A stretch of 28,161 nucleotides of DNA, from the IMG/VR virus record IMGVR_UViG_2579778529_000004, positions 1-28,161 of that record. One strand, 5' to 3'. Source of the DNA: a virus. Taxonomy: Duplodnaviria; Heunggongvirae; Uroviricota; Caudoviricetes. Position 1 is the first letter of the stretch. Each line of letters begins with the position of its first letter. The notes below the pieces were generated by a model. That model was not told the origin of the DNA. It saw only the letters and a program-made list of their open reading frames with translations, and did not search any database. Below are positions 13,583 through 27,360 of this stretch, piece after piece. The position numbers and the translations under genes were made by a program.

Positions 13583-13870
13583 GTTCTTTTTTCGCCCAAT
13601 TATTTTCAAAAAAATTCCCGTGCACAAAAATTTGAGGAGGCGGTCGGTGTCCGGCAGGGACGGTTTTGTCCTGAAAACCTCCCCCACCCCCTCTGACGGC
13701 CTCACCAGCGATTGCGAAAACATTCCATGACCTCGCGGTCACGGTCGGTTAATTGCTTCGCTGTGGTGCGTTCTGTGCGCCCTGTCCTGTTGGCTTTGTG
13801 CCCTGTCTCCTGTGTCTTCCATAAGTCACGCTGCCTTATCAGTCCACGTATCAGCCTGTTTTGCTCCTGT
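13583..13870. other. Candidate cos/packaging-site region of the insert
   Basis: Noncoding gap between HNH stop and small-terminase start, the position where HK97-like cos sites lie; contains a G-rich tract and CCTGTC repeats. Positional inference only. Confidence 0.3.
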
Positions 13871-14311
13871 TCAGTCATCATCGCCATACATCCAGTCGTT
13901 ACGGTGTGCCGCCCGTTCTTCCTGCTCGCGATACATGCCCGCCTTACGGTTCGCTTTCGTGGCTGGATCTTCCCGTGTCGTCTTACGGTTGTGGCACGTC
14001 TGGCACAATGCCTGGTGATTCCACTCAGGCCAGAAGAGAACATCACCGCCGCCATTGATGGGAATGATGTGATCCACCACAAGAGCTGGCGTATAAATCC
14101 CCTTAGCCAGACAACGCACGCATAACGGGTTTTTGCTCAGGTACAGGGCGCGGTATTTGTCCCACTGTCGGGAATACCCGCGCGCGCGGCGGTGTCCCCG
14201 TCTGGCATCCTCTGCACGCCATGCAGCCCGCCTGTGCTCTTCACACTTTCCGGACTTCACGCGCTTATTACAGCCCGGCTCAGTGCAGCGCCTTAATGGT
14301 TGCCACGGCAT
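13871..14311 (-). CDS. HNH endonuclease (packaging-associated)
   Basis: 146 aa, Cys-rich with HNH-type motif (...VVDHIIPINGGGD...NHQALCQTCHNRKT); adjacent to the terminase genes. Confidence 0.85.
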   Translation of the reverse strand: MPWQPLRRCTEPGCNKRVKSGKCEEHRRAAWRAEDARRGHRRARGYSRQWDKYRALYLSKNPLCVRCLAKGIYTPALVVDHIIPINGGGDVLFWPEWNHQALCQTCHNRKTTREDPATKANRKAGMYREQEERAAHRNDWMYGDDD

Positions 14312-14610
14312 CAGTACACCCCCACATCACGATAAACCGACCAGAGCGCAGAAATAGCCATAGGCAGTTCAGACTGCTCCACAGGTGAAACCGCTTCCCT
14401 GTTCTCGTACAGGAAAGCGATGTACATCAGGCAACCAACACGTATTGCCGGGGTAAATTCCAGCCCGTCTTCAAAACGTTTCCCGATATGCTTCTGGCAG
14501 GCTTCCAGCGCCGCATCGGTATACATTTTCAGAAGTTCGCCTTCTCCGGAAAAGTCATCAAGGCGAAGATGTGCCCTGACTTCATCAGGTGTAATTTTGT
14601 CTTCACTCAT
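14311..14610 (-). CDS. gp6-like head-tail connector protein
   Basis: Start at ATG 14610 (MSEDKITPDEVRAHLRLDD...) with AGGTGA 6 nt upstream; resembles the helper gp6-like protein. Confidence 0.65.
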   Translation of the reverse strand: MSEDKITPDEVRAHLRLDDFSGEGELLKMYTDAALEACQKHIGKRFEDGLEFTPAIRVGCLMYIAFLYENREAVSPVEQSELPMAISALWSVYRDVGVY

Positions 14611-25536: not shown

Positions 25537-26730
25537 TTATAACCCGTTTTTGCAATACACAGTGCAATACACAAATGATGAAAACAGCCAGAACCTTCCA
25601 GAAAAAACAAAAACGACGAACAAGAAAAAATCTTTTTCTTTCATTTGGTTACTAAAAAAATCAGGACAGGCCGCACTGTTGTTACGGCGTGATGTTACGT
25701 TCTTGGTAAAAAAATTCACCCGCGCAGAGACCTGTTCTTTCGCTTTTTTCGCCAGGCGACGCAGATCATCCCAGCGTTTACAGATGCCCAGGCCGGGATT
25801 CGCTTTCTGCCAGACCGTTTCATCAAACGGATCATCTCCCTCATCGAGGGTGTAAATAATCGCAAAGTAGGAGTCGTCTTTTACCGCGCCCTCCACGTCG
25901 CTGTTATAGCCACGCAATACCTTGATGGCGTAATCACGCTGCTCGTAACAAATCCCTTCCTTGTTAAACCCTGCCGTGGTGATACCAAATAAAAGGGACT
26001 GCAGACGGGCACCGGTTGCCGTTTCCAGAACGTCCCACACGTCACGGGTTTTATGTGCATGCAGCTCATCAATAATGGCGCAGTGGATGTTCAGACCATC
26101 CAGGTTGTTTGCATCCGAAGAAAGCGGTTCAAATTTTGATGCGCTCTGCTCCTGGTAAATCGCCAGCTTGTTGAAATCAAACAACCGCCCGAGTGTCGAC
26201 CGGGCTTTTCTGACCATATTTTTGGCGTCTTCAAACACGATTCTGGCCTGGTCACGCGTAGTTGCGGCTGAATACACCTCAGCACCGCCTTCACCATCTG
26301 CCCCCGTCATATACAGACCGATACCCGATGACAGGGTTGATTTTGCGTTTTTACGGGCGACTTCGTTGTACGCCGTCCGGAACCGGCGCACCATCACCGG
26401 ACGTCCGCTGCCATCGCTGCGCATGACAACTTCCCCGGTCTCTTCATTGACCAGCGGAATGACAAAACCAAAAATATTAATGAGGATAAATACATGCCAG
26501 TCCATCAACTCAATAGGCTGGCCTGCCAGCGCCCCTTTTACATGAGGCACAAATTTGTAGAAATTCAGGATGTGCTGCGCACGGGGTTCACTGAAATAAA
26601 TCCCCCGCTCTTCGCCGTACTTCAGATCATCAAGAAAACGCTGGCAGGCCAGACGGACAAATTCGCCAGCGACAATTTCTCCTGCAACAACACGTTCGGC
26701 GTAGCGGATCCCGTCAGCCACTTTTGCCAT
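25537..26730 (-). CDS. terL: Large terminase, N-terminal (ATPase) fragment of the interrupted gene, with a 51-codon insert-derived read-through tail
   Basis: The first ~346 aa align with the insert's terminase N-terminal two-thirds (FVPHVKGA, ARKNAKST, DQARIVFEDA, IIDELH motifs); homology stops at 25698 and the frame reads into insert DNA until a stop at 25537. Confidence 0.8.
   Translation of the reverse strand: MAKVADGIRYAERVVAGEIVAGEFVRLACQRFLDDLKYGEERGIYFSEPRAQHILNFYKFVPHVKGALAGQPIELMDWHVFILINIFGFVIPLVNEETGEVVMRSDGSGRPVMVRRFRTAYNEVARKNAKSTLSSGIGLYMTGADGEGGAEVYSAATTRDQARIVFEDAKNMVRKARSTLGRLFDFNKLAIYQEQSASKFEPLSSDANNLDGLNIHCAIIDELHAHKTRDVWDVLETATGARLQSLLFGITTAGFNKEGICYEQRDYAIKVLRGYNSDVEGAVKDDSYFAIIYTLDEGDDPFDETVWQKANPGLGICKRWDDLRRLAKKAKEQVSARVNFFTKNVTSRRNNSAACPDFFSNQMKEKDFFLFVVFVFSGRFWLFSSFVYCTVYCKNGL
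25552..25572. repeat. 21-bp terminal repeat GCAATACACAGTGCAATACAC, candidate integrase arm-type site
   Basis: 20/21 identical to 11140-11160, same orientation; just upstream of the integrase start. Confidence 0.55.
25702..25716. other. Attachment-site junction (helper terminase N-fragment/insert side)
   Basis: Plus CTTGGTAAAAAAATT; terminase-like translation ends at ...ARVNFFTK here and continues as 51 codons of non-terminase sequence. Confidence 0.5.
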
Positions 26731-27212
26731 CAGTCTCTCGCTTTTAAAAGTTCCGCCAGCGGATCAACATCATCCGGTCCGGCGGTATTTACTTTCGCCC
26801 GGCTTGCCGGTGACATACCAAACTCTGCAAGCATCGCCCGGATCCGCTTCCAGGCATCCGCTTTCATCGCAGCAGCCGGGTGTGCCTTAATCAGCACATC
26901 ACCGTTCTGCGTTTCCGTGCGGTAGGTATAACCCTCAGCATCAAGTGTTTCGCAGTGATGCCGGTATTCGGTGTAGGCTTCCACCAGTAACTCGAGTGCA
27001 CGCGCATCAAGCTGAGAAATGATCCCTTCCGCATTCAGTTCTTCCGCCATTCGCCTGAACCAGTACTTCCCCTGCGACCCTAAATGTTGCGGAATTTTAG
27101 GGAGACCTTTTTCATCCTTTTTAGCGGTTTTTTTTGGGTCTTTAACGGGGCGCTTTGAGGGGTTGCCTCGTATCAAATGCAGGCGTGGCGGGGTTTTCGG
27201 GGGTCCTGACAT
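26730..27212 (-). CDS. terS: Small terminase subunit (P27-family-like), helper prophage
   Basis: 160 aa beginning MSGPPKTPP...; stop overlaps the terminase ATG (ATGA); homologous to the insert's small subunit. Confidence 0.7.
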   Translation of the reverse strand: MSGPPKTPPRLHLIRGNPSKRPVKDPKKTAKKDEKGLPKIPQHLGSQGKYWFRRMAEELNAEGIISQLDARALELLVEAYTEYRHHCETLDAEGYTYRTETQNGDVLIKAHPAAAMKADAWKRIRAMLAEFGMSPASRAKVNTAGPDDVDPLAELLKARD

Positions 27213-27360
27213 AATCGGTTTTACCTATCAATCATTTAATCACATTCCCAAAAAAAAGTTTTCGAACCTGCGGCGATGTGAGGAAGGGTCAGGCGGCGGT
27301 ACTGAGCAGCCAGGGCTGCAGAGATTTGACCCGCCCCTCCCCTACAGATGGGAACTGTTA
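27213..27360. other. Candidate cos region of the helper prophage
   Basis: Noncoding gap between HNH and small terminase; positional inference only. Confidence 0.25.

What the first reader, a model, noticed from the sequence alone, without database searches (positions are those of the whole stretch)
13583..27360. Two separate candidate cos regions, one for the insert and one for the helper
Each element has a noncoding gap between its HNH gene and small terminase gene (insert 13583-13870, helper 27213-27360), where HK97-like cos sites lie. If the sites differ, each terminase would package only its own DNA; if they match, the satellite terminase could package helper DNA or the reverse.
Basis: inference. 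Interest (0 to 1): 0.4.

Follow-up and report, generated by a model that had tools for sequence, protein, structure and literature searches.

The report
Two different cos sites, satellite and prophage
A 14.6-kb capsid-forming phage satellite sits inside the large-terminase gene of an E. coli prophage, and each element has its own HK97/P27-type DNA-packaging (cos) site; the two sites differ in sequence, so each element most likely packages only its own DNA, as already shown for a closely related satellite.

Summary
The gaps exist exactly where stated, between an HNH gene and a P27-family small-terminase gene in each element. The insert gap is only partly noncoding. A conserved 61-aa gene (phrog_3173) fills 13702-13887, which leaves 119 nt (13583-13701).

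Both gaps carry the cos layout of phages with mapped ends (SfI/SfV, phiP27, HK97): a G-rich box, exactly 31 nt, then a C-rich 10-mer. The predicted cohesive-end cores are CGCCGCCTGA (27289-27298) and CGACCGCCTC (13637-13646), both on the minus strand.

The two sites are related in layout but not in sequence. Identity is 47% upstream, 4/10 in the core and 31% downstream. TerS is 27% identical, HNH 41% and TerL about 30%. The prototype satellite EcCIEDL933 and its helper HK106 package in a mutually exclusive way and differ by about the same amount. The insert's site is 84-90% identical to that of EcCIEDL933.

The insert is a capsid-forming PICI. It is embedded in the prophage terL at a 7-bp TTACCAA core and carries the helper-embedded-PICI (HE-PICI) arm motif.

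Verdict: real and correctly read, but a new member of known kinds. The cut positions and the helper role are inferred, not measured.

The parts
27361..27711 (-). Outer prophage HNH endonuclease (116 aa from ATG 27711)
   Evidence: PF01844 E 2e-16, phrog_144 E 2e-40. 90% aa identity to the phiP27 HNH L34.
27213..27360 (-). Outer prophage HNH-TerS intergenic gap (148 nt) holding the predicted cos site
   Evidence: Sequence read. No promoter or terminator match on the coding strand. No Rfam match.
27325..27342 (-). Outer G-box GGGGAGGGGCGGGTCAAA; the T at 27329 lies 31 nt before the core
   Evidence: Identical to the phiP27 and SfV G-boxes, with the same offset to their mapped or annotated cos 10-mers.
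27289..27298 (-). Outer predicted 10-nt cohesive-end core CGCCGCCTGA (predicted sense-strand cut between 27289 and 27288)
   Evidence: Same register as the HK97 right end CGCCGCCAAA (8/10), mEp235 CGCCGCCTAG (8/10) and the phiP27 annotated cos CGCCCGCCCC.
27244..27288 (-). Outer +1..+45 block on the TerS side (CCCTTCCTCACATCGCCGCAGGTTCGAAAACTTTTTTTT...; T8 tract 27250-27257); candidate TerS recognition region
   Evidence: 80% identical to the same block in mEp235, but only 38% to phiP27 and 31% to the insert. The position is analogous to the HK97 TerS site at +15..+29 (PMC11331095). This is analogy only.
26730..27212 (-). Outer small terminase (160 aa, P27 family)
   Evidence: PF05119 E 5e-26, phrog_83 E 4e-55.
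25703..26730 (-). Outer large terminase, N-terminal fragment (ATPase domain plus the start of the nuclease domain), cut at attL
   Evidence: PF03354 plus PF20441 positions 2-65; phrog_9 positions 169-449. PGAP calls it 'missing C-terminus' in EC416.
25703..25709 (-). attL core TTACCAA
   Evidence: Block shared by attL, attR and the empty site ...TTTTTTTACCAAACACATG... in relatives.
11058..11064 (-). attR core TTACCAA; the insert spans 11058-25702 (14,645 bp)
10328..11057 (-). Outer large terminase, C-terminal fragment (nuclease domain)
   Evidence: PF20441 positions 64-283, E 1e-36; phrog_9 positions 449-673. It joins the N-fragment in frame in 71 of 77 relatives.
13871..14311 (-). Insert HNH endonuclease (146 aa)
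   Evidence: PF01844 E 9e-10, phrog_144 E 4e-45. 84% aa identity to the EcCIEDL933 HNH.
13702..13887 (-). Conserved 61-aa gene of unknown function inside the insert 'gap'
   Evidence: phrog_3173 E 2e-28, full length. Annotated in EC416 and EDL933. Conserved C-terminus in relatives.
13583..13701 (-). Insert true noncoding stretch (119 nt) holding the predicted cos site
   Evidence: Block-wise conservation in 81 distinct relatives, while the neighbouring small ORF diverges.
13668..13691 (-). Insert G-box GGGGGTGGGGGAGGTTTTCAGGAC; the T at 13677 lies 31 nt before the core
   Evidence: Nearly invariant in cf-PICI relatives at a fixed distance.
13637..13646 (-). Insert predicted 10-nt cohesive-end core CGACCGCCTC (predicted sense-strand cut between 13637 and 13636)
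   Evidence: 8/10 to the phiP27 cos and 9/10 to EcCIEDL933 CGAACGCCTC. One relative (L082) has exactly the phiP27 10-mer in the same register. The vB_KppS-Ant record break brackets this position.
13600..13636 (-). Insert +1..+37 block: CTCAAATTTTT (13626-13636) and ATTTTTTTGAAAATAA (13600-13615); candidate TerS recognition region
   Evidence: Invariant or nearly so in relatives whose TerS is about 85% identical. The T7 tract at +23..+29 sits where the HK97 TerS A-tract lies at +24..+29. This is analogy only.
13226..13582 (-). Insert small terminase (118 aa, P27 family)
   Evidence: PF05119 E 2e-23. 88% aa identity to EcCIEDL933 TerS and 27% to the outer TerS.
11581..13242 (-). Insert large terminase, intact (553 aa)
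   Evidence: PF03354 plus PF20441; phrog_9 E 8e-179. 93% aa identity to EcCIEDL933 TerL.

Best explanation
The window holds a composite. An HK97/P27-like lambdoid prophage has its large-terminase gene split by a 14,645-bp capsid-forming PICI. The satellite is of the EcCIEDL933 type and is integrated in the helper-embedded (HE-PICI) manner at a 7-bp TTACCAA core.

Each element has its own HNH-dependent cos packaging module (HNH, cos, TerS, TerL), and each cos lies between HNH and TerS. The layout is shared: a G-rich box, a 31-nt spacer ending in AC, a C-rich 10-mer that becomes the cohesive end, and an A/T-tract region on the TerS side.

By analogy with HK97:
- TerS binds just downstream of the cut.
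- TerL and HNH make staggered nicks around the 10-mer and leave 10-nt 3' overhangs.
- Predicted cores are CGCCGCCTGA (27289-27298) for the prophage and CGACCGCCTC (13637-13646) for the satellite.

The spacer, core and TerS-side sequences differ, and the two TerS proteins are only 27% identical. Each terminase is therefore expected to cut and package only its own DNA. The satellite would be packaged as 14.6-kb units into its own small capsids after excision. The prophage would be packaged only once excision has rebuilt its terL.

Shown here: gene identities, the insert boundaries, the in-register match to mapped cos sites, and sequence conservation. Inferred: the exact cut positions, the overhang polarity, TerS binding on the downstream block, independent packaging, and the helper role of the prophage.
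For: (1) Gene content. Both modules are HNH + Terminase_4 TerS + TerL. The insert also has an integrase, AlpA-like genes, Bro-N, a DUF927 primase, SSB, MCP, protease, portal and Ad1 adaptor, and no tail or lysis genes.

(2) Insertion.
- The phrog_9 TerL profile is split at position 449.
- The empty site is intact in 71 of 77 IMG/VR relatives and occupied in 6.
- The same junction occurs in 36 of 5426 complete E. coli genomes.
- The doubled TGTATTGC motif is present at both ends.

(3) cos register.
- SfI particle DNA lacks the 10-mer TGCCCGCCCC (PMC3636060). The same 10-mer sits 31 nt after the G-box T in SfV and ST64B.
- The phiP27 annotated cos CGCCCGCCCC is at the same offset.
- The HK97 record ends ...GAC|CGCCGCCAAA at the same offset. 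Its numbering agrees with Chechik 2024: T16, C:G at 21, A:T at 24-29, and a 10-nt 3' overhang.
- Both window sites fit this register.

(4) Conservation. In 81 distinct cf-PICI segments the G-box, the AC at -12/-11 and the C at -10 are invariant or nearly so. The core follows the consensus C[GA][CA]C[CT]GCC[CT]C.

(5) Precedent.
- The insert site is 84% / 9 of 10 / 89% identical to that of EcCIEDL933, with TerS 88%, TerL 93% and HNH 84%.
- EcCIEDL933 and HK106 package in a mutually exclusive way.
- cf-PICI DNA has cohesive ends.

(6) Divergence between the two window sites is 47% / 4 of 10 / 31%. No cross copies exist.

(7) The particle-derived cf-PICI record vB_KppS-Ant breaks in the homologous gap. 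It lacks 69 nt that bracket the predicted core, which is what linear cos-ended DNA would give.
Against: - No DNA ends were measured for either element. The cut register is transferred from relatives.
- HK97 TerS has no detectable sequence similarity to the P27-family TerS used here. TerS binding at about +15..+29 is therefore analogy, not homology.
- The two TerS proteins in this window are homologous (27% identity), unlike the EcCIEDL933/HK106 pair. Some cross-recognition cannot be excluded.
- The Ant record break could be an assembly artefact. No IMG/VR contig ended at the predicted cut.
- The prophage's ability to produce particles or tails was not tested, and only part of it lies in the window.
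Confidence: 0.78

Rival explanations
1. Cross-talk. The two cos sites belong to one family and are functionally interchangeable. The satellite terminase could then package prophage DNA, or the prophage terminase (once restored) could package satellite DNA.
For: - The two sites share the G-box, 31-nt spacer and C-rich core layout.
- Both TerS proteins are in the P27 family, PF05119.
- Both cores contain CCGCC.
Against: - Only 4 of 10 core positions match, and the TerS-side block is 31% identical, about the random level.
- TerS is 27%, HNH 41% and TerL about 30% identical.
- The close relative EcCIEDL933 packages exclusively its own DNA beside HK106, with a comparable difference between sites.
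- The prophage genome would not fit a satellite-sized capsid.
Confidence: 0.1
2. The outer prophage is a defective remnant and is not the helper. Its cos would be a relic, and the satellite would depend on some other phage for tails and induction.
For: - Its terL is interrupted.
- The helper role was never tested here.
- None of the 17 prophages resident in strain EDL933 induced or mobilised EcCIEDL933 efficiently.
Against: - The interruption is reversible in frame.
- All head and tail ORFs in the window are full length.
- Close relatives with the same HNH-cos-TerS region are deposited as phages, for example phi467 and vB_EcoM-606R7 at 96-97% identity.
- The outer cos region is intact and conserved.
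- Satellite and prophage genes are co-oriented, and the HE-PICI arm motifs are present, as in described helper-embedded PICIs.
Confidence: 0.15
3. The gaps are ordinary regulatory spacers (promoter, terminator or ribosome-binding regions). Packaging is headful (pac), or starts somewhere else.
For: Short intergenic regions in late operons often carry regulatory signals. No ends were measured here.
Against: - No promoter or terminator match on the coding strand of either noncoding stretch.
- No Rfam match.
- HNH next to TerS/TerL marks cos packaging (PMC3592412 abstract).
- The sequences align in register with mapped cos sites.
- cf-PICI DNA shows cohesive ends.
Confidence: 0.04

Closest known systems
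EcCIEDL933, prototype capsid-forming PICI (Alqurainy et al.; bioRxiv 10.1101/2022.09.08.507074)
   Same: - Same gene order: int, alpA, primase, SSB, capsid, protease, portal, connector, HNH, small ORF, TerS, TerL.
- TerL 93%, TerS 88% and HNH 84% aa identity.
- The HNH-TerS noncoding region is 84-90% identical, with core CGAACGCCTC against CGACCGCCTC.
- Similar size: 15.4 kb against 14.6 kb.
   Different: - EcCIEDL933 sits in the chromosome between roxA and phoQ. This element sits inside a prophage terL and has a different integrase/att system with the HE-PICI arm motif.
- This insert has one connector gene between portal and HNH. EcCIEDL933 has two.
- The helper of EcCIEDL933 (HK106) uses a TerS from an unrelated family. 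Here both TerS proteins belong to the P27 family.
Helper-embedded PICIs (HE-PICIs), site A:Terminase_1:245/246 (Tommasini, Mageeney, Williams 2023, PMC10111431)
   Same: - Integrated in, and co-oriented with, a prophage late gene.
- Short identity block at the crossover.
- Doubled motif tgTGTATTGCantgTGTATTGCa, about 81 bp on one side and about 132 bp on the other side of the core.
- Zones in the order integration, Bro, replication, late.
   Different: - The model element 11capE lacks terS and is presumed to use the helper's cos, with a 258-bp stretch shared at 90%.
- This element has a complete terminase of its own and a cos that is not shared with the prophage.
HK97 cos with gp74 HNH, TerS and TerL (Kala 2014; Fung 2022; Chechik 2024, PMC11331095)
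   Same: - cos lies between the HNH and TerS genes.
- G-box, 31 nt, then the 10-mer CGCCGCCAAA.
- An A/T tract lies downstream of the cut.
- HNH-stimulated cleavage leaves a 10-nt 3' overhang.
   Different: - HK97 TerS is not detectably related in sequence to either TerS here.
- The TerS-side sequences are unrelated (27-40% identity).
phiP27, SfV, SfI and ST64B cos sites
   Same: - P27-family TerS.
- The outer HNH is 90% identical to the phiP27 HNH, and the G-box is identical.
- The insert core is 8/10 identical to the phiP27 cos.
- The insert shares the following TCAAATTTTT block with phiP27; SfV and ST64B have variants of it (ATCGTTTTTTT, CTCGAATTTTT).
   Different: The outer element switches at the cut to an mEp235-like core and TerS side (80% identity), so its cos region is mosaic.

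Membership tests
HNH-dependent cos packaging module (HK97/P27 type) | HNH endonuclease gene directly upstream of the TerS and TerL genes | tested here: met
   Both elements: PF01844 HNH, PF05119 TerS, PF03354 plus PF20441 TerL, in that order on the minus strand.
HNH-dependent cos packaging module (HK97/P27 type) | cos sequence between HNH and TerS that is homologous to mapped cos sites | tested here: met
   G-box, 31 nt, then a C-rich 10-mer, in register with SfI/SfV (ends mapped by experiment), phiP27 (annotated) and HK97 (record ends).
HNH-dependent cos packaging module (HK97/P27 type) | Particle DNA has defined ends with 10-nt 3' cohesive overhangs | not testable with these tools
   This needs particle DNA. 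The only indirect hint is the vB_KppS-Ant record break.
Capsid-forming PICI (cf-PICI) | 10-18 kb element with int, alpA and a primase/rep gene, plus capsid, protease, portal, connector, HNH, TerS and TerL | tested here: met
   14,645 bp, with all listed genes present. The criteria are those.
Capsid-forming PICI (cf-PICI) | No tail module and no lysis genes | tested here: met
   None among the insert ORFs or in the PGAP annotation of the 99.8%-identical EC416 copy.
Capsid-forming PICI (cf-PICI) | Forms its own small capsids and packages only itself, using helper tails | not testable with these tools
   Shown for EcCIEDL933, whose TerL is 93% identical. Not shown for this element.
Helper-embedded PICI (HE-PICI) | [quoted passage not shown] | tested here: met
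   terL is split at phrog_9 position 449. The empty site is in frame in 71 of 77 relatives. All genes are on the minus strand.
Helper-embedded PICI (HE-PICI) | Doubled TGTATTGC motif at fixed distances on both sides of the attP centre | tested here: met
   Motif at 11140-11160 (79-99 bp from the core) and at 25552-25574 (its start is 132 bp from the core).
Helper-embedded PICI (HE-PICI) | The surrounding prophage acts as helper | not testable with these tools
   Presumed in the literature as well. The prophage does encode a lambda-like tail module.

The most novel reading that the evidence does not exclude
In this phage group the cos site may be a two-part, recombining unit whose junction lies exactly at the cut.
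- The left half (G-box plus 31-nt spacer) travels with, and may be read by, the HNH/TerL nicking partners. It is kept across phages whose TerS proteins are unrelated (HK97 against the P27 family).
- The right half (+1 to about +40) travels with TerS and sets specificity.

In the embedded configuration the satellite would gain packaging priority in two ways. It keeps an orthogonal right half, and it holds the helper's terL broken until it excises.
Probability: 0.3. Interest if true: 0.45.

Novelty: new member of a known kind. Interest (0 to 1): 0.27.

Why it matters
This case gives base-level, testable predictions for the packaging sites of a cf-PICI and of the prophage that carries it. The cf-PICI papers read here state no cos sequence in their text.

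It also shows that capsid-forming satellites occur in the helper-embedded configuration. The same junction is present in 36 of 5426 complete E. coli genomes.

Orthogonal cos/terminase pairs within one replicon would be useful in two ways:
- for understanding how satellites avoid competing with their helpers;
- for designing satellite-based DNA delivery vehicles that do not co-package phage DNA.

The biology itself (separate, exclusive packaging by cf-PICIs; PICIs embedded in late genes) is already published, so the gain is incremental.

Tried and rejected
- GenBank OR845787.1 ('ECO95 1-6-1', host ATCC 43895). I first took this for an EcCIEDL933 fragment. Megablast showed no O157 match of 99% or more, so it is another cf-PICI. 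The real EcCIEDL933 locus was then fetched from EDL933.
- IMG/VR contig ends as a proxy for physical DNA ends. No contig ended at the predicted cuts. Most are prophage calls from isolate genomes.
- PDB sequence search with both TerS proteins, to tie them to the HK97 TerS-DNA structure. No hits. Pfam and blastp confirm that HK97 gp1 is unrelated in sequence. The HK97 TerS site is therefore used only as an analogy.
- Unanchored MAFFT alignment of the two gaps. This was uninformative until the sequences were put in register by the G-box.
- An inverted repeat after the insert G-box (GGGGAGGTTTT/AAAACCGTCCC). It is not kept in relatives and was dropped.
- Promoter and terminator scans and Rfam found nothing on the coding strand of either noncoding stretch.
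- The longer TerS ORF starting at 13723 was rejected, because relatives have frame-breaking indels upstream of 13582.
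Full report
**Anatomy of the window**

All relevant genes are on the minus strand. Reading 28161 down to 1, the order is as follows.

- The lysis end of a prophage.
- HNH 27361-27711, a 148-nt gap at 27213-27360, then TerS 26730-27212.
- A large-terminase N-terminal fragment. Its ORF runs 25537-26730, but the true TerL sequence ends at 25703.
- A block that starts with a tyrosine integrase (24308-25567) and runs through AlpA-like genes, Bro-N, a DUF927 primase (19332-21455), SSB and ProQ/FinO.
- In the same block: major capsid protein (16434-17603), prohead protease, portal and Ad1 adaptor.
- Then HNH (13871-14311), a gap, TerS (13226-13582) and an intact TerL (11581-13242).
- After an AT-rich stretch, the missing C-terminal terminase fragment (10328-11057).
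- Portal, protease, capsid, connector and lambda-like tail genes follow.

**The insert and its boundaries**

- The PHROG large-terminase profile is matched at 169-449 by the N-fragment and at 449-673 by the C-fragment. One gene has therefore been split.
- attL and attR share TTACCAA (25703-25709 and 11058-11064). This gives an insert of 14,645 bp.
- Among 77 informative IMG/VR relatives of the outer prophage, 71 have the uninterrupted, in-frame site (...TTTTTTTACCAAACACATG...) and 6 carry the insert.
- The same attL junction occurs in 36 of 5426 complete E. coli genomes.
- E. coli EC416 has the same composite; the HNH-TerS region compared is 99.8% identical.

**What the two elements are**

The insert has the full gene set and size of a capsid-forming PICI. 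Its TerL, TerS and HNH are 93%, 88% and 84% identical to those of the prototype EcCIEDL933, whose locus I retrieved from strain EDL933.

It also has the defining mark of helper-embedded PICIs, the doubled TGTATTGC motif at both ends. The spacing agrees with that reported by Tommasini et al. (2023), who list terminase sites A:Terminase_1:245/246 among 14 late-gene targets.

The outer element belongs to a common E. coli prophage group. Members deposited as phages include phi467 and vB_EcoM-606R7, which are 96-97% identical across HNH-gap-TerS.

**Checking the observation**

Both gap coordinates are exact. The outer gap is noncoding.

The insert gap is not wholly noncoding.
- A 61-aa ORF (13702-13887) overlaps the HNH stop.
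- It matches phrog_3173 over its full length (E 2e-28).
- It is annotated in EC416 and EDL933.
- It keeps its C-terminal residues across relatives whose DNA has diverged.
- The noncoding part is 13583-13701.

**Locating the cos sites**

Three independent anchors exist in related phages.

1. SfI. Direct sequencing of particle DNA ends showed a 10-nt gap, TGCCCGCCCC (PMC3636060). The same 10-mer is present in SfV and ST64B.
2. phiP27. GenBank annotates a 10-bp cos-site, CGCCCGCCCC, between its HNH and TerS genes.
3. HK97. The record ends ...GAC|CGCCGCCAAA and starts GTTTGAATTT. This numbering agrees with the published TerS-DNA work (T16, C:G at 21, A:T at 24-29), which also states a 10-nt 3' overhang (PMC11331095).

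In all of these phages the 10-mer begins exactly 31 nt after the T that closes a G-rich box (GGGGAGGGGCGGG|TCAAA...). Both window gaps fit the same register:

- Outer: GGGGAGGGGCGGG | TCAAATCTCTGCAGCCCTGGCTGCTCAGTAC | CGCCGCCTGA. The core is at 27289-27298.
- Insert: GGGGTGGGGGAGG | TTTTCAGGACAAAACCGTCCCTGCCGGACAC | CGACCGCCTC. The core is at 13637-13646.

A pattern that captures this layout hits only these two places in the window and none in 100 shuffles. That pattern was built after seeing the two sites. The agreement with the external anchors is the real test.

**Conservation in relatives of the insert**

I compared 81 distinct cf-PICI segments from IMG/VR.
- The G-box, the AC at -12/-11 and the C at -10 are invariant or nearly so.
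- The core follows C[GA][CA]C[CT]GCC[CT]C, with 16 variants.
- One relative (L082) has exactly the phiP27 10-mer.
- In relatives with about 85% TerS identity, the downstream blocks CTCAAATTTTT and ATTTTTTTGAAAATAA are essentially invariant, while the neighbouring small ORF has diverged strongly.

vB_KppS-Ant is a 16.5-kb GenBank record obtained from an induced lysate and filed as a phage. It is a cf-PICI-like element. Its linear record breaks in this same gap and lacks 69 nt that bracket the predicted core. That is what end loss on a cos-cut linear molecule would produce, but it is weak evidence.

**Do the two sites match?**

They do not. In the same register, identity is 47% for the G-box plus spacer (mostly the G-box), 4/10 for the core and 31% for +1..+45. 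Neither element carries a copy of the other's site. HNH, TerS and TerL are 41%, 27% and about 30% identical.

The most relevant comparison is EcCIEDL933 with its helper HK106.
- Their packaging was shown by experiment to be size-specific and mutually exclusive.
- Their sites differ by 44% / 3 of 10 / 38%.
- The insert's site is 84% / 9 of 10 / 89% identical to that of EcCIEDL933.

**The outer site is mosaic**

Left of the cut the outer site is phiP27-like (84% identity, and the HNH protein is 90% identical). From the core onward it is mEp235-like (80% identity). This suggests that the left half travels with HNH and the right half with TerS.

**Mechanism (inferred)**

- The mechanism is taken by analogy with HK97. 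There TerS binds +15..+29 through a C:G pair and an A-tract, and gp74 HNH stimulates TerL cleavage.
- Each TerS here probably reads the A/T-tract block downstream of its own cut. In the insert this is the T7 tract at +23..+29, and in the outer element the T8 tract at +32..+39.
- TerL and HNH would then make the staggered cut.
- HK97 TerS is unrelated in sequence to the P27-family TerS found here, so this step is analogy only.
- The satellite must excise to give 14.6-kb cos-to-cos units that fit small capsids.
- The prophage terminase can be made only after excision restores terL. This is the cis-delay already proposed for helper-embedded PICIs.

**Novelty**

The parts are all described: HNH-dependent cos packaging, cf-PICIs, HE-PICIs, and exclusive packaging by cf-PICIs.

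What is added here:
- base-level cos predictions for both partners;
- a cf-PICI shown in the embedded configuration with a cos that the prophage does not share. This contrasts with the model HE-PICI 11capE, which lacks terS and shares 258 bp with its helper at the presumed cos;
- the fixed G-box-to-core spacing across phages whose TerS families differ.

I rate it a new member of known kinds, of modest interest.

Noticed in passing
window 19186-19308 and 11346-11499: The 9-mer GCGGGTTAT occurs 10 times exactly, against 0.14 expected, and only in two clusters. One cluster lies just downstream of the DUF927 primase gene, where a PICI origin is expected. The other lies in the AT-rich stretch between the satellite TerL stop and attR, with three direct and three inverted copies. 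The second cluster has no explanation yet; it could be a second origin or a set of regulator or recombination-factor sites.
   Followed up: partly
window 13702-13887 (minus strand): A conserved 61-aa gene of unknown function (phrog_3173, E 2e-28) sits between the satellite HNH gene and its cos and overlaps the HNH stop by 17 nt. It is also present in EcCIEDL933, EC416 and vB_KppS-Ant. Its C-terminal motif RDRE..ECFRNR is conserved. Its fixed place beside cos hints at a packaging role.
   Followed up: partly
window 25552-25574 and 11140-11160: The doubled motif GTGTATTGC-N3-GTGTATTGC is present near both ends of the insert. It matches the HE-PICI-specific attP arm motif of Tommasini et al. 2023 in sequence and spacing.
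   Followed up: yes
window 27244-27342: The outer cos region is mosaic, with the junction at the predicted cut. The G-box and spacer are 84% identical to phiP27 (HNH protein 90%). The core and TerS side are 80% identical to mEp235 and only 38% to phiP27.
   Followed up: partly
L005 (GenBank LR881103.1, vB_KppS-Ant, 16,548 bp): This record is filed as an Escherichia phage from an induced prophage, but it has the cf-PICI gene set (int, primase, capsid, protease, portal, connectors, HNH, TerS, TerL). It also has a 766-aa ORF after TerL that is annotated as a tape measure protein. Compared with relatives, the ends of the record omit 69 nt around the predicted cos.
   Followed up: partly
window 25537-25702 (minus strand): The truncated outer terL ORF reads through attL into satellite DNA for about 55 codons of unrelated sequence. 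It overlaps the integrase start, so in the integrated state a chimeric TerL N-fragment could be made.
   Followed up: no
window 21500-23200: GC skew turns positive here, and the long minus-strand ORF 22218-23174 has no family support. In EC416 this region carries an IS1414 insertion and an opposite-strand YlcI/YnfO-family gene. This is probably the satellite's regulatory (Bro/immunity) zone, with genes or RNAs on the plus strand.
   Followed up: no
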